Assembly (NCBI GenBank): GCA_050263095.1 | Contig: JBLNEW010000068.1 | Span: 14,570 to 78,569 of the forward strand | Direction of reading: 5' to 3' | DNA: 64,000 nt | Source of the DNA: Deltaproteobacteria bacterium | Lineage (GTDB): Bacteria > Desulfobacterota > Deferrimicrobia > Deferrimicrobiales > Deferrimicrobiaceae | Shown here: piece after piece, positions 32,432 through 64,000 of the stretch | Position numbering within the stretch: position 1 is the first letter of the stretch | How the letters are laid out: every line of letters starts with the position of its first letter | Translations under genes and position numbers: made by a program | Notes under the pieces: generated by a model | Told to the model about the DNA's origin: nothing | Databases searched by the model: none | Seen by the model: the letters and a program-made list of their open reading frames with translations, nothing else

Positions 32432-32970
32432 GGCGCGGCGATCTCCTCCGACACCACGTTGTCGTTGGTATATATGCATATGCCGGAGGCGATGCGCAGC
32501 GCCTCGCACGCGATCGTGAGCGCCGGAAGCTCCGTGTGCTGCAACATTCCCCTTGCCGCCGCCAGGGCGAACGGCCCCCCGGAGCCGACGCCGATCACTC
32601 CGTCGTCGGGCTCGACCACGTCCCCGCTTCCGGACAAAAGCATCAGGTCCCGTCCGTCGGTCACCACCATTACCGCGTCCAGCCGGCGCAGCACCCGGTC
32701 GGTCCTCCATTCCTTCGCGAGCTCCACCGCCGACCTCCGGAGGTTCCCGCGGAATTCGGAGAGCTTCCCCTCGAACTTCTCGAACAGCGTGATCGCATCC
32801 GCGGTCGCCCCCGCAAATCCCGCAAGCACGCGGTCCTCATGCAGGCGGCGGATCTTCCGGGCCGTGTGCTTGAGGATGGTGGCGCCCATGGTCACCTGCC
32901 CGTCCCCCGCCATCGCCACCCGGCCGCCGCGCGACACCGCCACTATCGTAGTCCCCCGAATCTCGGTCAA
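32428..32970 (-). CDS. hslV: ATP-dependent protease peptidase subunit HslV
   Basis: 180 aa, [12 protein letters not shown]... with the N-terminal Thr nucleophile after Met; GDGQVT and GSGG motifs. Confidence 0.9.
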
Positions 32971-33926
32971 GACTTCCTCCCCGGGCGCGACAAGGGGTGC
33001 GCCGACTCGTATGCCCGCACGAGATGGCTGACGTTGACCCTCGCGTACCTCTGCGTCGTGGAAAGCGACGAGTGCCCCAGCATCTCCTGAATAGCCCGCA
33101 GGTCCGCGCCGGATTCCAGCAGGTGCGTCGCGAAGCTGTGCCGGAGTCCGTGCGGCGACAGCTTCCGCCCCGTCCCTGCCCGCCTGAGGGCGTAATCCAG
33201 GATACGGGCGACGCTGCGAGCCGAAAGGCCGCCCCCCCTCAAGTTGCGGAACAGGACACCCGCATCCGAGGCCTTTTCCGAAGAAGCGGACGCTTCCCGC
33301 TCGGACAGGTATTCCCTTATCGCGCGTATCGCCTTCCCCCCGACCGGTACGATCCGCACCTTTCGCCCCTTCCCCGTCACGCGAACCGTGCCCTCCTTCA
33401 GGCGTATGTCTTCACGCCGCAGAGCCACCAGTTCCCCGACGCGCAGGCCCGACGAGTAAAGCAGCTCGAGGATCGCGGCATCGCGCGCGCTCTTCTCTCC
33501 TCCCCCCGGCGCCGATCGGAGCAGGTCCATCATCTCGTCAACCGGGAGAAAACCAGGGAGCTTCATCTCCCTTCGGGGGGCCGCGAGCGACGCAGCCGGA
33601 TTCCCCGGAAGCGCCCCCTGACCGACCAGGAACGCGAAGAATGACCGGACGGCCGAGATCTTCCTCGCCAGGGACGCCGGTTTCAGGGACGGAAACCTGG
33701 CGGAGAAGAACCTGCGCAGGTCATCGGTCGTCACCGTCTTCCACCCGCCGGTCGCCTTGCCGGGGCCCTTCCCCTTCCTCTCCTTCAGGAACGCTTCGAG
33801 ATCGGAAACCTCGCGCACGTATGCGCGCACGGTTTCCCTGGAAGCATTCCGCTCCGAGAGGAGGAACTGCGCGAATCGGCCGATGGCGTCGTTCGAATAC
33901 GTGGCATCTCCCTTCCAAACCTTCAA
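32967..33926 (-). CDS. tyrosine recombinase XerC/XerD family
   Basis: [34 protein letters not shown] box II with catalytic Tyr, and [10 protein letters not shown] box I. I re-called the start to TTG compl. 33924-33926, which gives an XerD-like N-terminal length. Track ATG 34034 would overlap trmFO by about 95 nt. Sits in the conserved xerC-hslV-hslU arrangement. Confidence 0.8.
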
Positions 33927-33939
33927 AAAAGGAAAAGAT

Positions 33940-35292
33940 TTATGTAACACACAAGGGGTTAAATTTAAAGAAACTTCTGCGGAATTCCGTGATCGCGGAA
34001 AGCGCCGCCGCGGCTTGCCTTGCCTTGCGCTCACGCTTCCTGCCGGGCGGGGGCTCCGGGAGCAGGCCGAAGTTGGCGTTCATGGGCTGGCAACGGCCCG
34101 GGCGCGGCGAAGTTATATAACGCAGGAGGGACCCGGTCATGGAGGCGTCGGGAAGCGGGAAGGGCGCTTTCCCCGCCGCCATCGATGCGATGTAACAGGC
34201 AGCCGCGAAACCGGAGGCTATCGACTCCACGTAGCCCTCCACCCCCGTGATCTGGCCCGCGAAGAAAAGGCCCGGACGCCTCCGGCACTCCAGCCACGGA
34301 TGTAGATGGCGCCGCGCGTCCAGGAAGCTGTTCCTGTGGACTGAACCGTACCTCAGAAACCTCGCGCGGGAGAGCCCCGGTATCATGGAAAATACGCGCT
34401 CCTGTTCGGGATAGGCGAGCTTCGTCTGGAATCCGACCAGGTTGTACATCGTCCCCGCCGCATTCTCCTTGCGGAGCTGCACGACGGCGTGCGGAATCCT
34501 TCCCGTCCTTGGGTCCGGAAGGCCGACCGGGCGCATCGGCCCGAAAAGGAGCGTTTCCGGCCCCCTGCGGGCGAGCGTTTCCAACGGCATGCATGACTCG
34601 AAATACCTCTCGTCCTCGAACTCACGGGCAGGGACCACGCGGGCCGACAGCAGCGCGGACAGGAACGCTTCGTACTGCTCCCTGTTCATCGGGAGGTTCA
34701 GATAATCCCCCTCCCAAGGCCGGCCGCCGTACCGGTCCGCCAGGAACGCGGCATCTCCGTCTATCGTGGAGGCGTCGACTATCGGCGAGATCGCGTCGTA
34801 GAAATAATATCCCTCGTCCCCCAGGAGCGTTCGGATCGACGAGGACAGCGCGTCCGAAGGAAGCGGACCGCACGCCACGAGGACAAGGCCCGATTCGGGA
34901 ATCGACCGGACCTCCCTCTCCTCCACCCGGACGTTCGGCCTGGAGCGGACGGCTCCGGTCACCAGCTTCCCGAAGAGTTCGCGGTCCACGGCAAGGGCCT
35001 TTCCCGCGGGGACGCGGGCGCGGTCCGCGAGAAAAAGCAGGTTCGATCCCAGCTCCCGCAGCTCCGCCTTCAGCAGGCCCTTTCCCGACTGCTCTTCCTC
35101 GGAGCCCAGGGAGTTGCTGCACACGAGCTCCGCGAACCATCCCGTCGTGTGCGCGGGCGAAGAGGAGCCCGGGCGCATCTCCAGCAGATCGACGGGAACG
35201 CCCGCGGCCGAGAGGACCAGCGCGGCCTCCGAGCCCGCGAGCCCGGCTCCTATTACGGTGATTCTTGCGTCAGGAGGCGGAACCGCCGGCAC
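33940..35292 (-). CDS. trmFO: methylenetetrahydrofolate--tRNA-(uracil-5)-methyltransferase
   Basis: 450 aa. FAD motif ITVIGAGLAGSEAA; Gid/TrmFO-wide similarity. Confidence 0.85.
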   Translation of the reverse strand: MPAVPPPDARITVIGAGLAGSEAALVLSAAGVPVDLLEMRPGSSSPAHTTGWFAELVCSNSLGSEEEQSGKGLLKAELRELGSNLLFLADRARVPAGKALAVDRELFGKLVTGAVRSRPNVRVEEREVRSIPESGLVLVACGPLPSDALSSSIRTLLGDEGYYFYDAISPIVDASTIDGDAAFLADRYGGRPWEGDYLNLPMNREQYEAFLSALLSARVVPAREFEDERYFESCMPLETLARRGPETLLFGPMRPVGLPDPRTGRIPHAVVQLRKENAAGTMYNLVGFQTKLAYPEQERVFSMIPGLSRARFLRYGSVHRNSFLDARRHLHPWLECRRRPGLFFAGQITGVEGYVESIASGFAAACYIASMAAGKAPFPLPDASMTGSLLRYITSPRPGRCQPMNANFGLLPEPPPGRKRERKARQAAAALSAITEFRRSFFKFNPLCVT

Positions 35293-53731: not shown

Positions 53732-53806
53732 GCCGACGTAGCTCAACGGTAGAGCAGCTGATTCGTAATCAGCAGGTTGCCAGTTCAATCCTGGCCGTCG
53801 GCTCCA
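53732..53806 (+). tRNA. tRNA-Thr (anticodon CGT)
   Basis: Manual cloverleaf. Acceptor GCCGACG/CGTCGGC 7 bp, U8, D-arm GCTC/GAGC, anticodon stem GCTGA/TCAGC with loop TTCGTAA (CGU), T-arm GCCAG-TTCAATC-CTGGC, discriminator T, encoded CCA. Confidence 0.85.
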
Positions 53807-53810
53807 CCAC

Positions 53811-54329
53811 TTACAGGAAAATCACATACTTGCAAGTTGCCGAATCGCGCAGGATCATTCGGGAACGGACGAAATGTAAGGGATTAAGTGCACATTTTAG
53901 ACACATCTTGACGTACTCTAGAGATTTCCCGTTCCCGATGAGCCAGGTTGCGTAGGTGTGCCGAAGGTCGTGAAAGCGAATTTGCCGGAGGCCCGCTTTC
54001 CGCAAGCACGCTGCGAACATATGCCGAACGTTCGCCCCATCCTGCGCCGTCACTTCCACCGATTCCTCCTCATCTTCGGGGAGCCGATATATCTTCGCAG
54101 GGAATACCCACTCGGGCATGGACCGCCCTGCCTTCAACGCTTCCGCAGCCACAGCTCGCCGATGCTCAGTAAGGATAGCCGCCAGCAGGTCGGACAGGTC
54201 CACACGCCGCGCTTTCCCTGACTTCGGCGTGCTGATATGCCCTTCCCAGTTTGCACGCCGCACTTCGATGTATTTCCCATTCCAGTCAATATCGCCCCAT
54301 TGTAAGGCGATCAGTTCTCCCTGCCGCAT
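53811..54329 (-). pseudogene. tyrosine integrase (phage/P4-like), C-terminal catalytic fragment, decayed at both ends
   Basis: Box I GMRQGELIALQWGDID and box II HDLRHTYATWLI are present. The reading frame then diverges into non-integrase sequence before the catalytic Tyr region. Upstream it is joined by a frameshift to ORF 54286..54633. It is 4 nt from the tRNA 3' end. Confidence 0.7.
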
Positions 54330-54689
54330 CCCTTGTTCCGTCAGCCAATCTATACGGGATTTCTACCCCGTCTATCCGATCTTTCAAGCCCAACGATTCC
54401 AAAAACTCAACCGGGATCCGCTTTATTTCAGCTAGTGCCGAGACTGTGACTGATCCACTCGACACAATGCCCGCAATGCGTTTTTGCTCATTTAACGCCG
54501 CGAAAACCGCTTCCGGCGGGCACCCGGCATGACAATGTAAAACGACATCAACCTTTTCACCTGGGTTGACGCTAAGGGAAGGATTGCTGTCCGCATGCGC
54601 GGGCAGCAAGCTGTGAAACCTTGGCCGTTCCATTTAACCCCCTCTAAAAGGTCGGCAATTTCTTGTAATCGTGGGTTGTTGATTTTCAT
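54286..54689 (-). pseudogene. remnant of phage/plasmid primase zinc-binding (CHC2-type) domain, frameshifted and fused to the integrase fragment
   Basis: Two overlapping frames together read ...KWNGQGFTACCP / AHADSNPSLSVNPGEKVDVVLHCHAGCPPEAVFAAL, the CHC2 primase zinc-finger pattern (CPFH-D--PSLSV---G---HCFGCG). Continues into integrase-like sequence with another frameshift. Confidence 0.45.
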
Positions 54690-54931
54690 CGGGTCTCTCT
54701 TCCTCCAGCATCAACTCCGCGGAATATAGCGACCACATCATCGACACATATCGGCTCTTCGCGGTACTGCGCCAACCAGCGATCCACATCTTCGGTCCGG
54801 AAAAGGATGCCGCTACCTGGAGGATGTATGTGCGGAACATATGGCAATAGATGTCGTCGTGCCCAACGTGCGAAACGCCCGCCGCAATACATTCCAGCCT
54901 GTGCCAATGTCAAATACACCGTTATAGACAT
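54686..54931 (-). CDS. AlpA/excisionase-family small HTH protein (possibly degenerate)
   Basis: ITVYLTLAQAGMYCGGRFARWARRHLLPYV...ILFRTEDVDRWLAQ matches the phage AlpA/Xis DNA-binding pattern (l-eaA-yLgvs--tlyRwv--G-fP ... f--edvdaWl). About 80 aa. Confidence 0.4.
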   Translation of the reverse strand: MSITVYLTLAQAGMYCGGRFARWARRHLLPYVPHIHPPGSGILFRTEDVDRWLAQYREEPICVDDVVAIFRGVDAGGRETR

Positions 54932-55041
54932 GCCCATAAGCTCCTTTATAGGGGGCTATCTCGAAAACTATTACTGTTGTAAGGCTGAATGAAAAACTTG
55001 GGTCCAGGCTATATGGACGGAAAAAGAGGACGATATAGCGG

Positions 55042-55689
55042 TTAATACCGCCTATTTTTTAGTCGCCTTCTCCTTTCGGCGACGTAACTGGCGTCGTACT
55101 CTTTCTCCGGATACATCGCACGTAGTAGGGACGCGACTATCTCATCACAAGGGCGGCCGAACCGGTTCTCAAGCCTGTGAGATAACCGTTTAATGAACAT
55201 ATCTGGTGCAGGAGGTTTCCGTCCGGGCTTGCCTTTTTCCTTTGCCCATTGTTCATAAATGTAGATACAGTACCCCACTTCTTCGGCGTCTGGGTTTAAT
55301 AGCGGAACGTCTTCACGCCTTATTAAGCGAATCGCTGCAGCCAAATCGCTGAAGTATTTATTGGGATATCGTTTCCCCGCGATGATTTTGATGTCCGCGC
55401 ACATTCCTATTATGTCTGCAAAATCCTTAAGGTCATTATCGCAACCATCGGCGCATGCAACAAGATATTCTCTTAGGGCAACCGTTGCGAAATCATCAAT
55501 TAGATGGGTATCTACGCCTTCTTTGACAGGTTTCGGTTTGAGGATCTGTAGCGCTTCTCGAAGTTTCTCGGGATTGTCGCGAATCGATGTTTGGAGATGC
55601 CTCTTGACGGCCGTTTCCCAGTTTGCTGGAATTTTTATCGCGGAAAGATTCTTTCGCTTTGGCATGATTCCACCTCCCGGGACCCTCAT
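55042..55689 (-). CDS. hypothetical protein (island-borne, no recognisable domain; not a recombinase)
   Basis: 215-aa ORF in AT-richer DNA, divergent from the cassette array. No R..HxxR..Y tyrosine-recombinase motifs. Confidence 0.45.
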   Translation of the reverse strand: MRVPGGGIMPKRKNLSAIKIPANWETAVKRHLQTSIRDNPEKLREALQILKPKPVKEGVDTHLIDDFATVALREYLVACADGCDNDLKDFADIIGMCADIKIIAGKRYPNKYFSDLAAAIRLIRREDVPLLNPDAEEVGYCIYIYEQWAKEKGKPGRKPPAPDMFIKRLSHRLENRFGRPCDEIVASLLRAMYPEKEYDASYVAERRRRLKNRRY

Positions 55690-56014
55690 TATTACCCGAA
55701 TCGGTGTCTACGAAACCAGGGGAACTCCAGTAGATCTAGCGCACGTGCGGGAAAATTTATTTGAGTACATTCAATTTCCTCGATATGATTCGCACATTAA
55801 TGAGAGATCGTTTGCCATTCCTATTCGGCTACACCTTCGATATTTTCTCAACTGCCGATTGAGCGCCCCCGCATTCCTCAGCATCCGGGGGATCAAGGAG
55901 CCGGGCTTGAGCAGGATGTTCAGGCTACGTTATCCAGGGCATGGCTGCAGGACATGCACCCTAATCCTATCCTTGAATATGTGCTTTATGATTTTTATAG
56001 GCGAGAAATTTACA

Positions 56015-56032
56015 GTCTAAACCGCGTTAGGC
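56015..56032 (+). repeat. minimal attC/attI-like site GTCTAAAC-CGC-GTTAGGC upstream of the first cassette
   Basis: Inverse-core-like GTCTAA(A)C and GTTRRRY core GTTAGGC are separated by 3 nt and lie 36 nt 5' of the first cassette ORF. May mark the insertion point or a collapsed attC. Confidence 0.25.
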
Positions 56033-56068
56033 GAACGATGGAATTATATATAAAAAGGAGAACAAAAT

Positions 56069-56419
56069 ATGGTTAGGGAGATATCAAAATATAAGCCATC
56101 TTTTTCAACGTGCCCATTATGTAATAGCACTATGTCGAGTAAAGAAATACGAGGGCATGTTGTTCGGTGCCAAAAGACGAAACATATTGGTATTGGCGTT
56201 AAGCAATTATCAAAAAATACCGTATTGATTACAAAAAATATACTGTGTAAAGAATGTGGATTAGTCAAGGCCGCCACTTATGATATGAACAATAAAAGAC
56301 CGCCTAAAATTTGTAATGCATGTAAGAAAAATCCTCCTATTAAGTCGAACGATAAATTCGACCCATTAGACCGTTCTATCAGTGGTGGGGCATTTGAAAT
56401 GAATCGAAGGAGACATTAA
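56069..56419 (+). CDS. cassette ORF 1: small Cys-rich (double zinc-ribbon-like) protein, unknown function
   Basis: 116 aa. CPLC...HVVRC and CKEC...CNAC pairs. AAAAGGAG RBS. Followed 8 nt later by attC-like R1. Confidence 0.55.
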   Translation: MVREISKYKPSFSTCPLCNSTMSSKEIRGHVVRCQKTKHIGIGVKQLSKNTVLITKNILCKECGLVKAATYDMNNKRPPKICNACKKNPPIKSNDKFDPLDRSISGGAFEMNRRRH

Positions 56420-56427
56420 TTTACGTC

Positions 56428-56493
56428 GCCTAACCACCGTTTGCAGATGACGGCTTGCAGCTTTCTCGCTGAGCGCAAAGAACTGAAGCGGAG
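56428..56493 (+). repeat. attC-like site R1 (left half intact: GCCTAAC-CA-CCGTTTGCAG ... CTGAAGCGGAG; right core lost)
   Basis: RYYYAAC inverse core GCCTAAC. L''-like CCGTTTGCAG faces L'-like CTGAAGCGG with one extra G. Shares the central consensus GACGGCTyGC...CTTTCTCGCTGAGyGC with R2 and R3. Confidence 0.5.
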
Positions 56494-56526
56494 ATGGGCA
56501 GTAATAATAACAAGGGGAGATCACAA

Positions 56527-56862
56527 ATGGGAGCTGTGGAAAACATAAAAGAAATTGCCGACCTAATAAAGAAGATCGGCGATGCTGATTTGTATCGAAA
56601 GATAGTAGAGTTGGAACATGAAGTATTTGAACTTTCATGCCAAAACCTATTAAGTCTGAGTAAGATCGAAGAGTTAAAAGAAATTTTGCGTGTCAAACAG
56701 AACATCAAATACGATGGCCAAGTATACTATCTTGAGGGAGATTCCGTTCCCTATTGCCCAAAATGCTGGGAAGTTACTAGAGCACTGGTTCACCTAACAG
56801 AATCCGCGAGCCCAAGTTTTGGTCACTGTCCGAATTGTGAAAATTCATTCAGAGTTAGGTAG
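56527..56862 (+). CDS. cassette ORF 2: small coiled-coil protein with C-terminal zinc ribbon, unknown function
   Basis: 111 aa from ATG 56527 (AAGGGGAGA RBS 6 nt upstream). CPKC...CPNC at the C-terminus. Track start 56494 lies inside R1. Confidence 0.55.
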   Translation: MGAVENIKEIADLIKKIGDADLYRKIVELEHEVFELSCQNLLSLSKIEELKEILRVKQNIKYDGQVYYLEGDSVPYCPKCWEVTRALVHLTESASPSFGHCPNCENSFRVR

Positions 56863-56902
56863 ATCTTGGGTTGCTATATTCCAAATTTCTAGGAGATAGC
56901 AC

Positions 56903-57343
56903 ATGAATTTCAATCATATATGTCTCTATACCGATGGTGGTAGCAAAGGCAATCCAGGACCCGGCTCGATTGCCTTAATAATCTGTAACTCAAACAACGA
57001 AATATTACAGGAATATTCGGAATGCATTGGCCACTGCACCAATAACCAAGCAGAGTATAAAGCATTAATAAAAGGCCTCGACTTATCAGCAAGGTATACC
57101 CGGCGGAAGGTAACCTGTTACTCCGACAGCGAACTATTGATAAAACAAATGAATGGACAGTACAGATTAAAAAATGCTGCACTCAGAAAGTTGTTTCACC
57201 AAGTCCAGGACCTAGTTCGGATGTATGACGAGGTAGTATACCAACATGTACTCAGAGGAAATCAGCGAATAACGCGGGCTGACCAGCTTGTAAAGCAGGC
57301 CCATGCGGGGAGACATATTGATAAGGTGCATGTCATACCGTGA
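56903..57343 (+). CDS. cassette ORF 3: RNase HI-like (type 1 ribonuclease H fold) protein
   Basis: 146 aa. YTDGGSKGNPGPGSIA (Asp1), NNQAEYKALIKGL (Glu), CYSDSELLI (Asp2), C-terminal RADQL (Asp3). Aligns by eye to the E. coli RnhA catalytic residues; lacks the basic protrusion. Confidence 0.75.
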   Translation: MNFNHICLYTDGGSKGNPGPGSIALIICNSNNEILQEYSECIGHCTNNQAEYKALIKGLDLSARYTRRKVTCYSDSELLIKQMNGQYRLKNAALRKLFHQVQDLVRMYDEVVYQHVLRGNQRITRADQLVKQAHAGRHIDKVHVIP

Positions 57344-57347
57344 CGCC

Positions 57348-57421
57348 AGCTAACCACTGCTTGGCACTGACGGCTCGCGTCTTTCTCGCTGAGTGCCCGC
57401 AGCTGAAGCGGAGCGTTAGAC
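57348..57421 (+). repeat. attC-like site R2 (AGCTAAC ... CTGAAGCGGAGC-GTTAGAC), 74 bp
   Basis: Starts 5 nt after the ORF 3 stop and ends 24 nt before the ORF 4 start. Ends in GTTAGAC (GTTRRRY). The left end is its imperfect reverse complement. Internal L''/L' pairing with an extra G. Confidence 0.55.
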
Positions 57422-57445
57422 CGACTGAAAAATGGGAGGAGGGAA

Positions 57446-57718
57446 TTGAAACACTCACTGAGAAACTTATTCGTTTTCCTGTCCATTATGGGTTTAATCG
57501 TTTCCGCATGTGCTCATCAGCCAACTCCAGCCGCATATGATCCCCCAGGATTCTTCTCTGGTCTATGGCATGGATTTATTATTTTATTCAGTCTCATTGG
57601 AAGCATTTTTTCCGACATTAGAATCTACGCATTTCCAAATTCAGGTGGGTGGTACGACTTTGGTTTCTGCATAGGGGTAACTGCATTTTTTGGTGGAGGA
57701 GCAAGTGCTGCAACATGA
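57446..57718 (+). CDS. cassette ORF 4: small lipoprotein / membrane protein
   Basis: 90 aa from TTG (GGAGGAGGG RBS just upstream). MKHSLRNLFVFLSIMGLIVSAC has a lipobox-like signal peptide, then two hydrophobic helices and a Gly-rich tail. Confidence 0.5.
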   Translation: MKHSLRNLFVFLSIMGLIVSACAHQPTPAAYDPPGFFSGLWHGFIILFSLIGSIFSDIRIYAFPNSGGWYDFGFCIGVTAFFGGGASAAT

Positions 57719-57753
57719 GTGGAAAAACAAACAAGGGACATTTTGTTTACGCG

Positions 57754-57826
57754 GTCTAACTACCGCTTGCAAATGGCGGCTCGCGTCTTTTCGTTTAGCG
57801 CCCGCTGCTGAAGCGGAGCGTTAGAC
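57754..57826 (+). repeat. attC-like site R3 (GTCTAAC-TA-CCGCTTGCA ... TGAAGCGG-AGC-GTTAGAC), 73 bp, best-preserved copy
   Basis: R'' GTCTAAC and R' GTTAGAC are perfect reverse complements. L'' CCGCTTGCA pairs with L' TGAAGCGG leaving one bulged G. Starts 36 nt after the ORF 4 stop and ends 15 nt before the ORF 5 ATG, with GGAGGAG between. Confidence 0.6.
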
Positions 57827-57841
57827 CGCGGAGGAGAAATA

Positions 57842-58480
57842 ATGAAGAAGATATCAGTGAAGGGATTGGCGGATTATATGACGGCAAGTGCTGCGGCACA
57901 AAGGAGGTTAATACGGCAATACAAATACCCTTCTGAGGATGAAGCACGAGCGAAAATTTTGTATTACCGCGAAGCAAGGGACCGAATTGAGGCGTTCCAT
58001 AGAAGAGGACGGGATGCGGATTGGCTCAGGTCCCAAGCATCAAACCTCCGAGGTCTTGCTTTGCTCTCCTCTGTGCGAACACGCACACGCCTTCGACACA
58101 ATGCACGGGCACTTATAGATTATGGGCGGAACTTCAGCACCAAGACATTTTCGGTTCTCCCCGATATATCATTATCCGTTCAATATGGCGATCTTCGGAT
58201 AACAGCATTCCCTGATCTATATGTGAATGAAGATGGTGAATCAAAAATAATTAAACTAGATTTTTCCAAGAAACCACTGCCATCGGACGTACCAAAAATA
58301 ATATGTCAGGTGTTCCTAGAAGCCTCGATCCAAGCAGGTATGAGCATTCAAGCAAAAAATATTCTTCTATTCGATGTTACGAGAGGCAAAGAATATAAAC
58401 AAGCAAGAATAGGAGCAAGAATGAGTAGGAATATAGAAGCGACATGCCAAACGATTTCTGCTGTCTGGGACACAATATAA
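57842..58480 (+). CDS. cassette ORF 5: hypothetical protein (possible PD-(D/E)xK-like motif FPDLYV...ESK, weak)
   Basis: 212 aa, no confident domain. GGAGGAG RBS. Confidence 0.5.
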   Translation: MKKISVKGLADYMTASAAAQRRLIRQYKYPSEDEARAKILYYREARDRIEAFHRRGRDADWLRSQASNLRGLALLSSVRTRTRLRHNARALIDYGRNFSTKTFSVLPDISLSVQYGDLRITAFPDLYVNEDGESKIIKLDFSKKPLPSDVPKIICQVFLEASIQAGMSIQAKNILLFDVTRGKEYKQARIGARMSRNIEATCQTISAVWDTI

Positions 58481-58489
58481 ATTAAGACG

Positions 58490-58618
58490 GTCTAACTACC
58501 GCTTGAAGCTGACAGCTCCTTCTGGTCACAGTTCTTGCGGATTGGCGGCGCACCGAAAAGCCTTGGCCGTCGGGGTAAGGCTCGCCCCTCATCTCGCGGC
58601 TTAAGCCGAACGTAAGGC
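58490..58618 (+). repeat. attC-like site R4 (GTCTAAC-TA-CCGCTTGAAGC ... GCGGCTTAAGCCG-AAC-GTAAGGC), 129 bp, long/degenerate
   Basis: Left 20 nt nearly identical to R3. Right end GCGGCTTAA(G)C..GT(a)AGGC resembles known attC 3' ends, with a degenerate core. L''/L' again differ by one extra G. Confidence 0.45.
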
Positions 58619-58641
58619 ACAATGGGGAGGTACATACATTC

Positions 58642-59346
58642 ATGGCCATCCTGGCATTAAGTTGTACAAAATGTGGCAAAGAAAAGCCGATATTTATGGG
58701 GGATGAATTCGCCGGCATTAGGGATGAAATTGCCGGCAATGTGATCCATTGCGATGCATGCCACGAAATAATAATAAGATGCAGAGTTATAAGAGGTTAT
58801 ATCTACGTGTTATCTAATCCGTCGATGCCAGGACTATATAAGATTGGTATGACAAGAAGGCCACTGGGAGACAGAGTTAATGAATTGGGAGCGTCAACTG
58901 GGGTTCCAACACCTTTTGTTGTTGAGGCATACTTCGAAACCAACGACCCAGAAGAGCATGAGAGAAAGGTTCATATCGCCCTTGGGGAATACCGGATGCC
59001 AAGCAAAGAATTTTTCAGACTGCGTCTTGAGGAAGTGCTGAAAGCCGTTAAGGACATATGCGGACTGGAAAGCGTATCCAATAATTATTATTTTCAGGTT
59101 AATCAAGATGATAGCCAAGCGGAATACCCCGACGGAGCCCCACGAGAGTACCGAGGACAGTCTGAGCATCTCTTTCAAAAATGTCCACCGGTTGGGCATG
59201 AAAGAATCTTCGGAATCAGTTTGAACAGCAACATGAGGGCTCAATGTCGAAGCTGTGGCGCATTGTTATCACCACGAGCATCGGTTTGTGGATTCTGTAA
59301 TAAACCTCTGGAGGACAAAGACGTAATTATTGTTGAAAAAAAGTGA
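58642..59346 (+). CDS. cassette ORF 6: T5orf172/GIY-YIG-like domain protein flanked by N- and C-terminal zinc ribbons
   Basis: 234 aa. GYIYVLSNPSMPGLYKIGMTRRPLGDRVNEL...PFVVEAYFETNDPEEHERKVHIAL...EFF matches the T5orf172 (GIY-YIG-related) pattern. CTKCGK...CDAC and CRSCG...CGFC ribbons. Confidence 0.6.
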   Translation: MAILALSCTKCGKEKPIFMGDEFAGIRDEIAGNVIHCDACHEIIIRCRVIRGYIYVLSNPSMPGLYKIGMTRRPLGDRVNELGASTGVPTPFVVEAYFETNDPEEHERKVHIALGEYRMPSKEFFRLRLEEVLKAVKDICGLESVSNNYYFQVNQDDSQAEYPDGAPREYRGQSEHLFQKCPPVGHERIFGISLNSNMRAQCRSCGALLSPRASVCGFCNKPLEDKDVIIVEKK

Positions 59347-59521
59347 CGATGTATTAGTGAAAATTGGCCTATGTGCCTAACAAGCACAGGCGTATACGAA
59401 GACATGAAAAAAAATATGATTCCTCCGCGGATGGGATATTCTCGACAAAAAGGAGGTCGACTTCGAGGTGAACAGATGTTGACATTTCCAATGCCTACGA
59501 TCCTTCAGGTGGCCTGAGACG

Positions 59522-62500
59522 ATGAACGACGAATACGCGCAATCGAATGGCATCCAAGGGTTTTCACAAAAAGTCCTCCGATATTTCCTGAACTTCCTTC
59601 AGTCGGATTTCAAGAGGCAGCATGCCCCGCGTCGTCGTATACATTTGCATTCGGATGCCGGCTTCCGAATGGGAATGCCACTCAGGAAATACGACTCACT
59701 TTACAAGGCCTCGTGGAAACTCGTCGACACCACTCCGGACGGAGGATTGTCTCTCCGGATCGCTCCCGATCAGTTCCGGGCTCCAATCAATCCGACGCTG
59801 CGTGACCTCATCCGGCAGTACATCAATGCCATCGAAGACTGCACGATTTCAGGCATAGCAAAGACCACGGTCGAGTTTGCCGCGGGGAGGATCGTATCTG
59901 CCGCGAAGGACCCGGAGAAATTCGTCGAATCCGTCCAGGTCCATTTCGCCGAAGAAATCGGTAAGCACATCGTCCAACCCCTTCTGTCTTTACTGGAGGC
60001 ACCATTCAGGGATGCAGCCTATTCGGCCATCGAGTCCATATACGAGATCGAGGCCGACCTCACGGATGTCATCGCGTCAAGAACCCTTGAGAATCTCCCG
60101 CTGGCTATCAATACGTTGATTGTCTCGGGCAACACAGCGCCAATGCGAGACCTCTTCGCGGATTCCTTCTCCCCTCAGGACGTCCGGTTCCGCGTGCAAT
60201 CGTTCTTCGTCGATGTCGCTACCTCCGACGCCTTCCAGGAACTGCGCGACCTCCAAAACTCACTGCGTTCCGCGGAAAACCAGTCCATATACCTATACTT
60301 CTGCGACTTGAAGTTCGGACACAATATTTTCCCGCTGTTCTACATTCCATCCACGCTTACATACGATGAAGGGGACCGGGCATTCATTCTCGACTTCGAG
60401 CCGCACCTTTTCGTTAACAAGCAGGCGGTCGACTGGATTCTCCAAGAACATAAGGGGGAAACAGCTTCCCTCCCCATTTCCCCAGTGGCCGACCGCATCG
60501 TCTATCTGGACGGCAAGCGGTCTTTCCTCGAGGAAATGGAGACCGTTTTCTCCCGCCTCATCCTCGCGTTCGAGTTGGCTGCCGGTATCGACCTACAGAG
60601 GAAAACACTCCAACAGGTATCCTCGCCGATGCTGAAGATCACAACCGCCGCATACCTCGCAGTCTTCGACAAGTCGGACGAATCGCTGATCAACGACTAT
60701 GAGGAGCTTCTCGCCGCTTTCAACGAGGAACAGAAGAGCGCCGGCGACCTCTTCGAAAACATCATCAAGGGTTTCTTATTCGATAACCCCGTCTCCGTTT
60801 CCTCGGCTGTCGAGTCTGCATGGGACGAGATGACCATCCCCGACCGTCTGGTAGCCGTCTCGCCGATCCCCGTGAATGAGGAGCAACGGAAGATCCTAAT
60901 GGCCTTGAAAAATCCTAACTGCAACTATGTATCCGTCCAGGGACCTCCGGGAACTGGAAAATCACACACAATCACGGCAATTGCGTTCGAAGGGATCCTA
61001 AACGGTCAGAGCGTCCTCATCCTCTCCGACAAGACCGAAGCTCTCGACGTCGTGCAAGACAAACTGGAATCAGCCCTTTCCAAGGTGCGGCACGGAGACG
61101 AAGATTTCCCCAACGCTATCCTGCGGCTGGGAAGATCCGGAGGCACCTACAACCGCCTCGTGTCCGCGTCAGCCCAAGCGAAGATCAAATGCCACCACAA
61201 AGCGGCAATCAGTCACGAGGAGGACCTCAGAAAACAATACGAAGAGACGTCGGCCACGCTGCGCGCTGACATCGGGAAAACAGTCGAATCCCTATCCTCG
61301 ATCAGGATTGATGTTCTGAACGAACTGCACGCGCTTGAAGCCGAGATCGAAACCGTCCGACCGGAGATCATCTCCAGGCTCCAGAGGCCTTCGGAGCCCG
61401 TCCGCATTCCCGTACTCGCTCCCTTGGCTGGCGCGGCCCACTTTCCCTCGGCGTCCGCGGTTCTGACCCGGGCTTTCCGGGAAGGCGGTAGCAACACACT
61501 CCAATACCTCGTCCCCCATCTTTCCGCTTGGGAGCGCGCAGGGCAACTGGCCGGGGATGTTGGACCGCGCGACCCACTGTCGGTTTTCTCCACGCTCGAA
61601 TCCAGCCACCACGAGACACTCCTCCGGTACATCGCCCGGTACGAATCGCTACGCATGCCGATTATCGGCTGGCTATTCCGGCGGGCAGCGGTTCGCGAAA
61701 CCGACCTCAAGGCCGGCTCCGATCTACCCTGTCCCGACCCGATTGACCTTCACAAGCGATTGCCGCACATGAAGCGTGCGGCTCGCGTCCTGGGTCTTCT
61801 TTGCGACACGTTCACCCGCGAGGGACTTCAGGAACATCTTGTAGGCTTCGCGTATCGCCTTCTCAGGGAAGGCGAGGCTACGCATGCTGATGTTCCCGCG
61901 CTGGCGTCTCTGGCGAGGGAGTTCTCATCGGTTATCGCTGGTTCTCCCTCGAATGCCGATACTCTGCTTCGTTCAGAGGATTTCCGAACCCCGGAGGAAC
62001 TTTTCGCATTCATCGCAAAAGCCGTCAGGTACTCCGCTCTCTGGTCAGACATCGTCGGACATATGGGGAGAGTTCCGAAGACCGACTACGTCGGCACCAA
62101 GATCCGGCTCGAGCAACTGAACACCACTCGGATGACCCGCGAGATCGACAGCCGCTTCCTCGAATTCGTCGATCAAAAGAAGGCGACGGTTAAAGAGATC
62201 GGCGGCGTCATCAAGCACAAGCAGAAATTCCCAGAGGACGAGTTCCACCACCTTTCGGACGCGTTTCCCATCATCATCGCCGGCATCCGGGAGTACGCCG
62301 AATATGTCCCTCTCAAGCAGAGGTTGTTCGACCTGGTCGTAATCGACGAAGCCAGCCAGGTGTCTGTCGCCCAAGCACTCCCGGCTGTCCTCCGTGCAAA
62401 GAAGATCGTCGTCTTCGGCGACGCAAAACAGTTCTCGAACGTGAAGTCCTCGCAAGCGAGTATCGCTATCAACGCAGGCTACCTGACCGACATCGAGGCG

Positions 62501-63910
62501 TATTTCCGAGACAACGTCGCCGATGCGACGACAAAGATCCAGCGGTTGAAGCATTTCGATGTAAAGAAATCGATCCTCGAATTCTTCGACCTCATCGCCA
62601 ACTACCAGACGATGCTCCGCAAACACTTCCGCGGCTATCAGGAATTGATCAGCTTCTCGTCGAAAACCTTCTATGACGGACAGCTGCAGGCGATTAAAAT
62701 CCGCAGTAAACCCATTCAGGAGGTGCTCCGCTTCGAGGTTCTCGAGTCTGTCCCGGAAAGCCCTGTCAAGAACGTGAACCGGGCCGAGGCCGAATTTATC
62801 CTCAAGGAACTTCGCCGGATGATCGACGATGGCGATGAGATGTCCATCGGCGTCATTACGCCGTTCCGGGAACAGGTCAAGCTCCTCAACGAGATCCTTT
62901 TCCGCGACGCGTACGGCGAAAAGTTCGAGTCCGAGCTTCGCCTGAAGATCATGACCTTCGATACCTGCCAGGGTGAGGAGCGCGACCTGATCATCTTCAG
63001 CATGGTCGCAACTGCCAAGCGGGATCTGCTCAACTATGTATTCCCCGTCACGCTCGATGCCGAAACCCAGGATTCTGACAGGCTCAAGGTCCAGCGCCTG
63101 AACGTCGGATTCAGCCGCGGCAAGGAAGCGTTTCTGTTCGTCCTCTCCAAGCCGGCCGACCAGTTTCGTGGTTCGATCGGAATCGTTCTGAACCACTACA
63201 AGAATATCCTGGATGACAGGTCCCGGGCAGACAAGCTGGGTGTTGACCCGACATCCCCGATGGAAATCAAGGTTCTCGACTGGATCTACAAGACGCCTTT
63301 CTGCCAGATCAACGAAGAACGGATCGAGGTCGTCCCGCAATTCCCGGTGGGGGAGTACCTCAGGCAATTGGACCCGTTCTATGCGCATCCGGCCTATTGT
63401 TGCGATTTCCTCGTCCGCTACTATGACGGGCAAACCACTGCCAATGTCATCATCGAATACGACGGGTTTGCCGAGCACTTCGTAGAGAGGAATAAAATCC
63501 ACAACGGGAACTGGGAACTCTACTATCGCCCCGAGGATATCGAACGCCAGATGGTCATCGAGTCCTACGGCTACAAATTCCTGCGCCTGAACCGGTTCAA
63601 CACCGGGAATGACCCGGTGGATTATATGTCGAAGCGCCTATACGAACTCGTGGAGGTAGCCTCAAAGGCCGACGAGGACAGCAGCCCTGTTGCTCATATC
63701 AAGGACGACGCGGAAGGAATCGAGAACGGTAGCAAGCGGTGTTGTCCTAAGTGCGGAGAGATCCGCAAAGCCCAAGAGTTCTGGGACCCCAAGCTCAAGA
63801 GCGGAAGTGGAGGATACGGTCGGAACTGTCTGGAGTGCAAACAGGCGGCGCTCAAGGCCCGTTCGGGAGGGAAAACAAGGAGGTGGCGTTCCCGCTATAG
63901 ATACCGTTGA
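59522..63910 (+). CDS. large SF1 helicase (AAA_11/AAA_12, Upf1-like) with long N-terminal domain and C-terminal Vsr/DUF559-like endonuclease domain plus terminal zinc ribbon; Hhe-like defence architecture
   Basis: 1462 aa. Walker A VQGPPGTGKSHTI, motif II VVIDEASQV, motif III VVFGDAKQF, motifs V/VI TFDTCQGEERDLIIFSMV...NVGFSRGK. C-terminal IIEYDGFAEHF...D..R......GYKFLRLNRF is the DUF559/Vsr-like PD-(D/E)xK pattern. CPKCGE...CLEC at the extreme C-terminus. Confidence 0.75.
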   Translation: MNDEYAQSNGIQGFSQKVLRYFLNFLQSDFKRQHAPRRRIHLHSDAGFRMGMPLRKYDSLYKASWKLVDTTPDGGLSLRIAPDQFRAPINPTLRDLIRQYINAIEDCTISGIAKTTVEFAAGRIVSAAKDPEKFVESVQVHFAEEIGKHIVQPLLSLLEAPFRDAAYSAIESIYEIEADLTDVIASRTLENLPLAINTLIVSGNTAPMRDLFADSFSPQDVRFRVQSFFVDVATSDAFQELRDLQNSLRSAENQSIYLYFCDLKFGHNIFPLFYIPSTLTYDEGDRAFILDFEPHLFVNKQAVDWILQEHKGETASLPISPVADRIVYLDGKRSFLEEMETVFSRLILAFELAAGIDLQRKTLQQVSSPMLKITTAAYLAVFDKSDESLINDYEELLAAFNEEQKSAGDLFENIIKGFLFDNPVSVSSAVESAWDEMTIPDRLVAVSPIPVNEEQRKILMALKNPNCNYVSVQGPPGTGKSHTITAIAFEGILNGQSVLILSDKTEALDVVQDKLESALSKVRHGDEDFPNAILRLGRSGGTYNRLVSASAQAKIKCHHKAAISHEEDLRKQYEETSATLRADIGKTVESLSSIRIDVLNELHALEAEIETVRPEIISRLQRPSEPVRIPVLAPLAGAAHFPSASAVLTRAFREGGSNTLQYLVPHLSAWERAGQLAGDVGPRDPLSVFSTLESSHHETLLRYIARYESLRMPIIGWLFRRAAVRETDLKAGSDLPCPDPIDLHKRLPHMKRAARVLGLLCDTFTREGLQEHLVGFAYRLLREGEATHADVPALASLAREFSSVIAGSPSNADTLLRSEDFRTPEELFAFIAKAVRYSALWSDIVGHMGRVPKTDYVGTKIRLEQLNTTRMTREIDSRFLEFVDQKKATVKEIGGVIKHKQKFPEDEFHHLSDAFPIIIAGIREYAEYVPLKQRLFDLVVIDEASQVSVAQALPAVLRAKKIVVFGDAKQFSNVKSSQASIAINAGYLTDIEAYFRDNVADATTKIQRLKHFDVKKSILEFFDLIANYQTMLRKHFRGYQELISFSSKTFYDGQLQAIKIRSKPIQEVLRFEVLESVPESPVKNVNRAEAEFILKELRRMIDDGDEMSIGVITPFREQVKLLNEILFRDAYGEKFESELRLKIMTFDTCQGEERDLIIFSMVATAKRDLLNYVFPVTLDAETQDSDRLKVQRLNVGFSRGKEAFLFVLSKPADQFRGSIGIVLNHYKNILDDRSRADKLGVDPTSPMEIKVLDWIYKTPFCQINEERIEVVPQFPVGEYLRQLDPFYAHPAYCCDFLVRYYDGQTTANVIIEYDGFAEHFVERNKIHNGNWELYYRPEDIERQMVIESYGYKFLRLNRFNTGNDPVDYMSKRLYELVEVASKADEDSSPVAHIKDDAEGIENGSKRCCPKCGEIRKAQEFWDPKLKSGSGGYGRNCLECKQAALKARSGGKTRRWRSRYRYR

Positions 63911-63965
63911 TCGAGAAAACAATACGACTCTTTGAAACCAAGAACCTTTCACAAGGAGGCGTTCC

Positions 63966-64000
63966 ATGAGGGTTGAGCTGACCTTGCCGGAAGAGTTCGC
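63966..64000 (+). CDS. start of an unidentified gene (MRVELTLPEEF...), truncated by window end
   Basis: AAGGAGG RBS 6 nt upstream of ATG; only 11 codons visible. Confidence 0.25.
   Translation, partial: MRVELTLPEEF

What the first reader, a model, noticed from the sequence alone, without database searches (positions are those of the whole stretch)
56903..59346. Cassette cargo looks defence/nuclease-like: RNase HI-like protein, PD-(D/E)xK-like hypothetical, and a T5orf172 (GIY-YIG-related) protein with zinc ribbons
Cassette ORF 3 carries all four RNase H catalytic residues in RnhA order. Cassette ORF 6 has a clear T5orf172 nuclease-like core bracketed by two Cys4 ribbons. ORF 5 has a weak PD...ExK pattern. 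ORFs 1 and 2 are small zinc-ribbon proteins. Standalone RNase H-like and GIY-YIG-like cassettes inside an attC array next to an Hhe-like helicase would fit the view that chromosomal integron arrays store anti-phage or toxin functions. None of these small proteins corresponds to a described system that I recognise.
Basis: inference. Interest (0 to 1): 0.5.

Follow-up and report, generated by a model that had tools for sequence, protein, structure and literature searches.

The report
Nuclease genes in decayed integron array
A short, worn-out integron cassette array inside an 11-kb genomic island carries three unrelated, apparently intact nuclease genes; this fits the published idea that integrons stockpile conflict genes, and only one of the genes belongs to an unnamed family.

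Summary
The sequence observations hold. ORF3 (56903-57343) is an intact archaeal-type RNase HI. ORF6 (58642-59346) is a T5orf172/GIY-YIG nuclease between two CxxC...CxxC ribbons. ORF5 (57842-58480), which has no Pfam or PADLOC match, gives a very confident model with a Cas4/RecB/Dna2-type PD-(D/E)xK fold.

The ORFs are separated by attC-like repeats. attC profiles built from an unrelated array hit the window only at these repeats. However, only one attC still folds as a hairpin, and no integron integrase lies in the window or the 3.7 kb beyond it. The array sits in a ~10.9-kb tRNA-Thr island whose own integrase is a pseudogene. It is therefore an eroded CALIN.

The genes are independent cassettes, not one system: no other locus examined carries relatives of two of them.

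The defence reading is only partly supported:
- ORF6 matches the PADLOC candidate PDC-S57 and the nuclease domain of PD-lambda-1/SNIPE.
- ORF5 relatives sit among methyltransferases, helicases and toxin genes.
- ORF3 relatives also occupy a housekeeping position after gyrA.

That integron cassettes store defence genes is already published. The only modest novelty is the ORF5 family: about 1,270 clusters, stand-alone and unannotated.

The parts
53732..53806 (+). tRNA-Thr (CGT), left border of the ~10.9-kb low-GC island that holds the array
   Evidence: ARAGORN. A 45-nt partial copy of the tRNA 3' half lies at L001 15209-15254, about window 64730-64775, outside the window. GC is 50.6% in the island against 63.9% in the host.
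53811..54329 (-). Truncated or frameshifted tyrosine recombinase (island integrase pseudogene); not an integron integrase
   Evidence: Pfam Phage_integrase 1.3e-15 over a 172-aa fragment. NCBIfam integron-integrase model TIGR02249 scores 18.8 bits against a cut-off of 265.
56026..56032 (+). Orphan GTTAGGC core site (R'-like) just upstream of the first cassette ORF
   Evidence: Direct reading and pattern search. No partner R'' and no fold. Status uncertain.
56069..56419 (+). ORF1, 116 aa, two CxxC pairs (zinc-ribbon-like); function unknown
   Evidence: ORF list. Only weak sub-threshold hits: DpnI 1.3e-4, Zn_ribbon_8. AGGAG ribosome-binding site upstream.
56426..56493 (+). attC-1, with the 5' half (R'' GCCTAAC plus L'') kept and the R' end lost
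   Evidence: Repeat families D1-D4. The independent attC 5'-half profile hits 56427-56454 at E 4e-4. No hairpin.
56527..56862 (+). ORF2, 111 aa from the ATG with a ribosome-binding site (the mechanical ORF starts at 56494); coiled-coil plus C-terminal CxxC...CxxC ribbon
   Evidence: Gene call in L001 7006-7341. RBS AAGGGGAG. phrog_1244 1.6e-4.
56790..56862 (+). Possible divergent attC (ACCTAAC ... GTTAGGT, 7/7 complementary) overlapping the ORF2 stop codon
   Evidence: Inverted-core scan. Weak fold, z -1.6. Not hit by the attC profiles. Tentative.
56903..57343 (+). ORF3, 146 aa, archaeal-type (LC11/Sto/Rv2228c-like) RNase HI with an intact DEDD active site (D11, E51, D75, D127)
   Evidence: Identical to NCBI MGE5699926.1, 'ribonuclease HI family protein [Deltaproteobacteria bacterium]'.
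57346..57423 (+). attC-2 (R'' AGCTAAC, R' GTTAGAC), partly eroded
   Evidence: Repeats. 3'-half profile E 1.2e-4; 5'-half only E 3.5. Fold not better than shuffles.
57446..57718 (+). ORF4, 90 aa, small membrane or lipoprotein-like protein (TTG start after GGGAGGAGGG)
   Evidence: phrog_30702 2.9e-17. The lipobox-like LIVSAC motif and hydrophobic segments are read from the sequence.
57752..57828 (+). attC-3, the only well-preserved site: R'' GTCTAAC and R' GTTAGAC with paired L''/L'
   Evidence: Perfect 9-nt inverted ends. Bottom-strand DNA fold -26 kcal/mol, z -4.2, 0 of 200 shuffles as good. Profile hits at 0.026 and 4e-4.
57842..58480 (+). ORF5, 212 aa, stand-alone Cas4/RecB/Dna2-fold PD-(D/E)xK protein of an unannotated family
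   Evidence: NCBI MGE5699928.1, 'hypothetical protein'.
58488..58619 (+). attC-4, long (~130 nt), R'' GTCTAAC with a degenerate R' (GTAAGGC)
   Evidence: 5'-half profile E 5.5e-5; 3'-half E 0.18. No hairpin.
58642..59346 (+). ORF6, 234 aa: Cys4 ribbon, then T5orf172 (GIY-YIG) nuclease core (residues 51-142), then a disordered linker and a second Cys4 ribbon
   Evidence: No attC downstream. NCBI MGE5699929.1, 'GIY-YIG nuclease family protein'.
59522..63910 (+). Neighbouring 1462-aa SF1 (AAA_11/AAA_12) helicase. It is context, not part of the cassettes, and moves as a separate module.
   Evidence: Pfam. PADLOC PDC-S37, MkoC, MkoA and Hhe hit the helicase core only. NCBIfam ProA 134.7 against a cut-off of 1500, and Hhe 96.6 against 2000. 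A 91%-identical copy in L016 lies behind HTH and KilA-N genes.

Best explanation
Window 56.0-59.35 kb is the remnant of an integron cassette array with no integrase (a CALIN). It lies inside a ~10.9-kb island inserted at tRNA-Thr in a 'Deltaproteobacteria bacterium' MAG.

Six small same-strand genes, each with its own Shine-Dalgarno sequence, are separated by attC-type repeats. They were presumably captured one at a time by IntI-mediated attC x attI recombination (inferred). Only one attC still forms the recombinogenic hairpin and no IntI is nearby, so the array is now essentially frozen.

The genes are independent single-gene cassettes, not an operon-encoded system. Three encode intact hydrolases of nucleic acids.

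1. ORF3 is a minimal type-1 RNase HI that should cut the RNA strand of RNA/DNA hybrids through D11/E51/D75/D127. It belongs to a lineage that also serves as the housekeeping gene in other bacteria, so it is most likely a captured extra copy.
2. ORF5 is a stand-alone Cas4/RecB/Dna2-fold protein without the Fe-S cysteines. Its conserved residues are D125, K138, E/D140 and Q156. It is inferred to be a DNA end-processing or degrading nuclease that acts alone.
3. ORF6 is a GIY-YIG (T5orf172) DNA nuclease with Y55, K67-x-G69, R78 and E123. It is probably directed to DNA by its flanking zinc ribbons.

ORF5 and ORF6 are the plausible conflict or anti-phage candidates. This is inferred from family neighbourhoods and PADLOC candidate matches and has not been shown.
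For: Array anatomy:
- Repeats lie between every ORF.
- Independent attC half-profiles hit only these repeats in 64 kb, all on the + strand.
- One canonical hairpin remains.
- There is no IntI.
- The island borders are defined.

Independence of the genes:
- No shared neighbours among 17 or more ORF5 loci.
- No locus other than this one has two of the genes.
- The helicase has other neighbours at 91% identity.

Cassette status elsewhere:
- ORF3 homologues at 67% and 79% identity sit between attC sites.
- One ORF5 homologue has an attC immediately upstream.

Enzymology:
- ORF3.
- ORF5.
- ORF6.

Conflict context:
- ORF6 matches PDC-S57 at 4e-27 and the PD-lambda-1 nuclease domain at 1e-15.
- The ORF6 relative P0075 lies among Mrr, NOV_C, HNH and HATPase_c_3 genes.
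- ORF5 neighbourhoods hold N6_Mtase, C5 methylase, N6_N4_Mtase, Eco57I/MmeI, ResIII, AAA_21/15, SocA_Panacea and PsyrT/A.
- ORF5 is spread patchily across Desulfobacterota, Acidobacteriota, Chloroflexia and Eisenbacteria.
- Published precedent exists for cassette-borne defence (bioRxiv 10.1101/2024.07.02.601686 and 10.1101/2024.07.02.601719) and for a T5orf172-type GIY-YIG defence nuclease (SNIPE, PMC13190303).
Against: - No functional data exist.
- ORF5 lacks the canonical (D/E)xK in register. Its conserved K138-x-E/D140 has the reverse order, and the second acid is present in only about 62% of a broad family sample. Catalytic activity is therefore not assured.
- ORF5 neighbourhoods also contain housekeeping genes such as gyrA, Hsp70 and DnaB. 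No background-controlled enrichment test was run.
- T5orf172 genes are also homing-endonuclease-like selfish genes or domesticated regulators in phages and satellites (PMC10448857, PMC8096241).
- ORF3's relatives after gyrA argue for an ordinary RNase H role.
- ORF6 has no attC on its 3' side, so its cassette status is inferred only from attC-4 upstream.
- An array with no upstream Pc promoter may not be expressed, and the promoter scan gave nothing above chance.
Confidence: 0.6

Rival explanations
1. The cassettes are not defence genes. ORF3 is a spare housekeeping RNase HI. ORF5 is a repair or recombination exonuclease. ORF6 is a selfish homing-endonuclease-like gene or a DNA-binding regulator. 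All are carried passively in a dead array.
For: - ORF3 homologues sit after dnaN-gyrB-gyrA.
- T5orf172 genes behave as homing-endonuclease-like genes in phages (PMC10448857) and as a domesticated regulator in PLE (PMC8096241).
- The attC sites are eroded and there is no IntI.
- The ORF5 fold is shared with phage RecB/lambda-exonuclease-type recombination nucleases.
Against: - ORF5 has no annealase or other conserved partner, as recombination exonucleases usually do.
- Its neighbourhoods are rich in methyltransferase, helicase and toxin genes.
- ORF6 matches a defence-island-derived candidate model, and its relative lies in a restriction-rich island.
- All three reading frames are intact at full family length.
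Confidence: 0.28
2. ORF3-ORF6, possibly with the downstream helicase, form one multi-gene defence system: RNase H, PD-(D/E)xK nuclease, GIY-YIG nuclease and SF1 helicase.
For: The genes are adjacent, on the same strand, and all are nucleic-acid enzymes. The helicase hits the Hhe, ProA, Mokosh and PDC-S37 models in its core. One RNase H homologue lies 87 nt upstream of an AAA_11/12+PLD helicase (L035).
Against: - attC sites separate the genes.
- None of 34 related loci carries two of them.
- ORF5 loci share no neighbour.
- The 91%-identical helicase is preceded by HTH and KilA-N genes instead.
- Each family has its own separate distribution.
Confidence: 0.05
3. The repeats are not attC sites but some other intergenic repeat, so the region is simply a gene-dense stretch of the tRNA island.
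For: Three or four of the five repeats do not fold better than shuffled sequence. There is no IntI. No covariance-model test was run.
Against: - The RYYYAAC/GTTRRRY-type ends (GTCTAAC...GTTAGAC) are present, with a perfect hairpin in one copy.
- Profiles built from a bona fide 14-site array in another organism pick out exactly these repeats and nothing else in 64 kb.
- The layout is one ORF followed by one repeat, with 400-800-bp units on a single strand.
Confidence: 0.05

Closest known systems
[quoted passage not shown]
   Same: A one-strand array of short promoterless ORFs, each followed by an attC-type repeat, with no IntI. The cargo includes small single-gene nuclease-type proteins.
   Different: - The array is very short (four clear attC sites and one tentative) and most sites are eroded.
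- It is embedded in a tRNA-Thr integrative island rather than beside an intI/attI platform.
- The cited SCI paper does not mention RNase H, T5orf172, GIY-YIG or Cas4.
- No phenotype is known.
LC11-RNase H1 / Sulfolobus tokodaii RNase HI / Rv2228c N-domain / Halobacterium RNase HI (type-1 RNases H without the basic protrusion)
   Same: ORF3 aligns end to end with these enzymes (8.5e-23 to 1e-17) with all four acidic residues in place. It has the same ~140-aa minimal architecture.
   Different: It scores below the NCBIfam equivalog cut-offs, for example 101.8 against 300. Here it is a mobile cassette rather than a core gene or a fusion with an acid phosphatase.
SNIPE / PD-lambda-1 (Nature 2026, PMC13190303) and the PADLOC candidate PDC-S57
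   Same: ORF6 has the same T5orf172-type GIY-YIG nuclease domain: PD-Lambda-1 model positions 355-452 at 1e-15, and PDC-S57 at 4e-27. The catalytic Glu is conserved (E123 here, E414 in SNIPE).
   Different: ORF6 has no transmembrane segment and no DUF4041. It has two Cys4 ribbons and a disordered linker instead. It matches only the first ~110 of the 212 positions of the PDC-S57 model. PDC-S57 is an untested candidate, and no paper in the library mentions it.
Cas4 / RecB-family nucleases: Dna2 nuclease domain, AdnAB/AddAB nuclease domains, ACE1, MGME1, lambda exonuclease
   Different: - There is no detectable sequence similarity.
- The four-Cys Fe-S cluster is absent; only C202 is conserved.
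- The lysine and acid are in K-x-(E/D) order rather than (D/E)-x-K.
- There is no helicase, Cas1, Argonaute or annealase partner.
SLX1 / I-TevI-type GIY-YIG nucleases with zinc modules
   Different: The proteins are eukaryotic or phage enzymes with different partners (Slx4) or homing biology. The ribbon positions differ, and the sequence relationship is only at superfamily level.

Membership tests
Complete integron | An IntI integron integrase (tyrosine recombinase with the IntI-specific extra domain) adjacent to the array | tested here: not met
   The island recombinase fragment scores 18.8 bits on TIGR02249 against a cut-off of 265. The only other recombinase in the window, at 32967-34034, is XerC/D (313.9 bits XerC; 107.7 on the IntI model). 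No integrase lies in the 3.7 kb beyond the window.
CALIN / attC array | Two or more attC sites (R''-L''...L'-R' imperfect inverted repeats with RYYYAAC / GTTRRRY ends) close together, with cassette ORFs on one strand | tested here: met
   Four repeats are hit by independent attC half-profiles. The ends are GTCTAAC/GTTAGAC. One canonical hairpin has z -4.2. The other sites are eroded. The IntegronFinder covariance model was not available.
Type-1 RNase H (RNase HI) | RNase H fold domain above the Pfam gathering score, with the four carboxylates D-E-D-D | tested here: met
   RVT_3 scores 65.5 bits against 21.6, and RNase_H 51.4 against 25.8. D11, E51, D75 and D127 align to 3u3g and are invariant or nearly invariant in 119 homologues.
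T5orf172 / GIY-YIG superfamily | T5orf172 domain above the cut-off, GIY-YIG fold, and conserved Tyr, Arg and Glu catalytic residues | tested here: met
SNIPE / PD-lambda-1 | N-terminal transmembrane anchor, then DUF4041, then a C-terminal GIY-YIG domain (PMC13190303) | tested here: not met
   Only the nuclease domain matches, at model positions 355-452 of 496. Pfam finds no DUF4041. No hydrophobic segment is seen in the sequence.
PD-(D/E)xK superfamily, Cas4/RecB branch | The alpha-beta-beta-beta-alpha-beta nuclease core fold | tested here: met
PD-(D/E)xK superfamily, Cas4/RecB branch | Canonical catalytic D ... (D/E)-x-K motif and the QxxxY motif | tested here: inconclusive
   D125 is conserved (110 of 118 acidic). 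K138 is K/R in 103 of 118. An acid at position 140 occurs in 73 of 118, and the order is K-x-(E/D). Q156 is conserved, but the aromatic residue is at +3. Model coordinates could not be inspected, so the active-site geometry was not checked.
Cas4 proper | Four conserved cysteines that bind an Fe-S cluster, and association with cas1/cas2 | tested here: not met
   Only one cysteine (C202) is conserved in the family. There are no cas genes in any of the loci.
Hachiman HamA, Shedu SduA and other known defence PD-(D/E)xK effectors | A match to the PADLOC models for these proteins | tested here: not met
   ORF5 gives no PADLOC hit at E <= 0.1.
Hhe / ProA / Mokosh (neighbouring helicase) | A full-length match above the NCBIfam cut-off | tested here: not met
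   ProA scores 134.7 against 1500 and Hhe 96.6 against 2000. The matches cover only the helicase core, residues ~925-1207.

The most novel reading that the evidence does not exclude
ORF5 represents a previously undescribed family of stand-alone proteins of about 212 aa. The family has about 1,270 clusters at 50% identity, no Pfam or PADLOC model and no fusions. Its members have a Cas4/Dna2-like fold but no Fe-S cluster, and an atypical arrangement of the conserved lysine and acid.

It moves horizontally between phyla as a single gene, sometimes as an integron cassette, and lands in restriction-modification-rich islands. On this reading it is a new single-gene anti-phage or anti-plasmid nuclease.
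Probability: 0.3. Interest if true: 0.5.

Novelty: new member of a known kind. Interest (0 to 1): 0.3.

Why it matters
If ORF5 or ORF6 protect against phages, they would add two compact single-gene nucleases to the defence catalogue. That would also extend the 'integron cassettes as defence biobank' picture from Vibrio and clinical integrons to uncultured Deltaproteobacteria and to decayed, integrase-less arrays.

The RNase HI result is a useful caution. The same protein lineage appears as a core gene after gyrA and as a cassette. A nuclease-like cassette is therefore not automatically a defence gene.

Otherwise this is ordinary accessory-genome content. NCBI already annotates it as RNase HI, hypothetical protein, GIY-YIG nuclease and AAA protein.

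Tried and rejected
- A naive scan for AAC...GTT inverted ends plus folding energy gave dozens of hits across the GC-rich host DNA and was useless as an attC detector.
- RNAalifold on a MAFFT alignment of 13 L014 attC sites recovered only the R''/R' pairs, because the variable centres misaligned. I therefore built no covariance model and used two nhmmer half-site profiles instead.
- The afdb50 Foldseek library was unavailable.
- Profile and sequence searches of the ORF5 family against PDB sequences and Pfam found nothing.
- A genome-contig scan for the helicase found no relative. The metagenome scan found a single one.
- The promoter and terminator scan of 55.6-59.6 kb was at chance level.
- DNA for the P0075 locus was not retrievable; only its gene list was.
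- I considered ORF6 plus the helicase as a two-gene system. I rejected this because the 91%-identical helicase lacks a T5orf172 neighbour.
- I considered the island recombinase or the 32967-34034 recombinase as IntI. I rejected this on NCBIfam scores.
- The weak DpnI/mREase hit of ORF1 is below threshold and covers its CxxC region, so I did not interpret it.

Full report
**What is at the coordinates**

The window is a chromosome of about 64% GC. After a tRNA-Thr(CGT) gene at 53732-53806, GC drops to 39-55%. An exact-protein look-up places the window on a 72-kb metagenome contig, and L001 extends it by 3.7 kb. A 45-nt partial copy of the tRNA 3' half lies about 10.9 kb downstream, at L001 15209-15254.

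The low-GC stretch is therefore a tRNA-integrated island, with 50.6% GC against 63.9% in the host. Its own tyrosine recombinase (53811-54329, minus strand) is a 172-aa fragment. It abuts a primase zinc-finger fragment.

NCBI holds the same locus in a 'Deltaproteobacteria bacterium' MAG. The annotations are RNase HI family protein, hypothetical protein, GIY-YIG nuclease family protein and AAA domain protein (MGE5699926.1.928.1.929.1 and .930.1).

**The array**

Between 56.0 and 59.35 kb lie six small plus-strand ORFs, each preceded by a Shine-Dalgarno sequence. They are separated by a repeated element of about 75-130 nt. The best copy, 57752-57828, has perfect GTCTAAC/GTTAGAC ends. Its bottom strand folds at -26 kcal/mol, z = -4.2, and none of 200 shuffles does as well.

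To test attC identity without circularity, I used an unrelated metagenomic array, L014. It has about 14 canonical attC sites between about 15 small one-strand ORFs, and it was found because it contains an ORF3 homologue. From it I built nhmmer profiles of the R''-L'' and L'-R' halves.

In the 64-kb window the significant hits are all on the plus strand and only at the repeats:
- 5' halves: 58489 (E 5.5e-5), 56427 (4e-4), 57754 (0.026), and 57349 only weakly (E 3.5).
- 3' halves: 57396 (1.2e-4), 57799 (4e-4), 58595 (0.18).

A fifth, divergent candidate (56790-56862, ACCTAAC...GTTAGGT) overlaps the ORF2 stop codon but is not supported by the profiles.

Several features show decay:
- attC-1 has lost its R' end.
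- attC-2 and attC-4 no longer fold.
- No attC follows ORF6 or the helicase.
- No integron integrase is present. The island recombinase fragment and the XerC/D-type gene at 32967-34034 both score far below the IntI model cut-off.

This is an eroded CALIN, not an active chromosomal integron.

**ORF3**

Pfam RVT_3 and RNase_H both score above their gathering thresholds. NCBIfam gives sub-threshold hits to the Halobacterium RNase HI and to the bifunctional RNase H/acid phosphatase (Rv2228c-type) models. The best solved relatives are LC11-RNase H1, the Rv2228c N-domain and Halobacterium RNase HI.

D11, E51 and D75 are invariant, and D127 is present in 117 of 119 close homologues. The family is large, with 3,052 clusters at E <= 1e-10.

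The genomic contexts split:
- Homologues at 63-65% identity lie directly after dnaN-gyrB-gyrA in two long contigs.
- Homologues at 67% and 79% identity are flanked by attC sites.
- Others sit next to a 1352-aa STAND-like gene, or between a ribonucleotide reductase and an AAA_11/12+PLD helicase.

ORF3 is thus a catalytically intact RNase HI of a lineage that is housekeeping in some bacteria and a cassette in others. Nothing specifically links it to defence.

**ORF5**

No Pfam, NCBIfam, PHROG or PADLOC hit was found. No family member hits Pfam, and there is no sequence link to the PDB.

Homologues form a tight family of about 212 aa. A full HMMER scan finds 1,273 50%-identity clusters at E <= 1e-3. 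All of the best 150 listed hits are of similar or shorter length, with no fusions.

- MGME1, Cas4, RecE and lambda exonuclease

Phage PD-(D/E)xK and RecB exonucleases top the BFVD search.

The conserved positions are K138, E/D140, Q156, E160 and D178, plus K28, Y41-Y42 and N87 in the N-terminal helices. The Fe-S cysteines of Cas4 and Dna2 are absent.

On context:
- The family is scattered over Desulfobacterota, Acidobacteriota, Chloroflexia and Eisenbacteria MAGs.
- It has no conserved neighbour.
- One member has an attC immediately upstream.
- Individual loci place it between an MmeI/Eco57I-type methyltransferase plus SNF2 helicase and a radical-SAM/UDG-SocA block; next to methyltransferases; or among an HsdS fragment, HNH, zeta-toxin-like and RT genes.
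- In a pooled scan of 150 neighbour ORFs from 17 loci, the commonest families include N6_Mtase, ResIII, Helicase_C, C5 methylase, N6_N4_Mtase, Eco57I, MmeI, AAA_21/15, SocA_Panacea and PsyrT/A. Some housekeeping genes also appear.

This suggests an association with defence islands, but the analysis is not background-controlled.

**ORF6**

T5orf172 and MUG113 score above the Pfam cut-offs. PADLOC gives PDC-S57 at 4e-27 and the PD-Lambda-1 nuclease region at 1e-15. Many PHROGs of unknown function also match.

Relatives share mostly just the roughly 90-aa core. The five closest also carry the N-terminal CxxC...CxxC ribbon, and one of them (P0075) also has C-terminal cysteine pairs.

P0075 lies among NOV_C, Mrr, HNH, trypsin-like and HATPase_c_3 genes.

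PD-lambda-1 has since been characterised as SNIPE, a membrane-anchored DUF4041 plus GIY-YIG nuclease that cuts injected phage DNA and is toxic when released from the membrane (PMC13190303). ORF6 shares only the nuclease domain. T5orf172 proteins are also homing-endonuclease-like genes and domesticated regulators in phage-satellite conflicts.

**Is it one system?**

The evidence says no:
- attC sites separate the genes.
- tblastn of ORF1-6 and the helicase against all 34 related loci finds no second locus with two of them.
- The only helicase relative found (91% identity) is preceded by an HTH and a KilA-N gene.
- The helicase itself is an SF1 AAA_11/AAA_12 protein. It hits the Hhe, ProA, Mokosh and PDC-S37 models only in the core and far below the family cut-offs.

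**Comparison with what is known, and verdict**

That integron cassettes, including CALINs, encode compact anti-phage systems is published (10.1101/2024.07.02.601686; 10.1101/2024.07.02.601719). That paper does not mention RNase H, T5orf172 or Cas4-like cassettes.

The most likely picture is a fossil cassette array with three independent nuclease cassettes. The only element with some novelty is the unannotated ORF5 family. Interest is modest.

Noticed in passing
window 53732-64000 and L001 14390-15260: The whole low-GC stretch is a ~10.9-kb island at tRNA-Thr, closed by a 45-nt partial tRNA copy whose T-arm differs by compensating changes. Its integrase (53811-54329) and a primase zinc-finger gene (54286-54633) are fragments. 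An excisionase-like HTH_17 gene lies after the helicase (L001 14463-14762).
   Followed up: partly
L016 1-6521 (metagenome contig Ga0172368_10016410): A 91%-identical copy of the 1462-aa helicase sits behind an XRE-type HTH gene and a KilA-N gene, with no attC array or T5orf172 gene. The helicase appears to travel as its own module.
   Followed up: partly
L035 2129-5685: An ORF3-like RNase HI (66% identity) lies 87 nt upstream of a 1006-aa AAA_11/AAA_12 helicase with a PLDc_2 domain (Mokosh type II-like architecture), just after a ribonucleotide reductase gene. This may be coincidence or a real pairing.
   Followed up: no
L033 316-5266 and L034: Another ORF3-like RNase HI (70% identity) follows a 1352-aa protein whose only hit is a weak nSTAND3 NTPase match.
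   Followed up: no
L014 1-10660 and L015: This is a long canonical attC array of about 14 sites and about 15 small ORFs with no Pfam hits, ending at an rve_3 transposase gene. L015 is a variant of the same array with one extra SEC-C-motif cassette right after the RNase H cassette, which is an example of cassette gain or loss.
   Followed up: partly
window 57446-57718: ORF4 is a 90-aa protein with a lipobox-like signal (LIVSAC) and two hydrophobic segments. It matches a phage protein family of unknown function (phrog_30702, 2.9e-17).
   Followed up: no
window 55042-55689 (minus strand): A 215-aa ORF, divergent from the array in the position where an intI gene would sit in a complete integron, has no hit in Pfam, NCBIfam, PHROGs or PADLOC.
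   Followed up: partly
window 59375-59381: A lone GCCTAAC (R''-like) heptamer lies 29 nt after the ORF6 stop codon. It has no matching R' and no attC profile hit. It may be the last trace of a sixth attC.
   Followed up: partly
window 32967-34034 (minus strand): A XerC/XerD-type tyrosine recombinase (NCBIfam XerC 313.9 bits) is the only intact recombinase in the window. It is not an integron integrase.
   Followed up: yes
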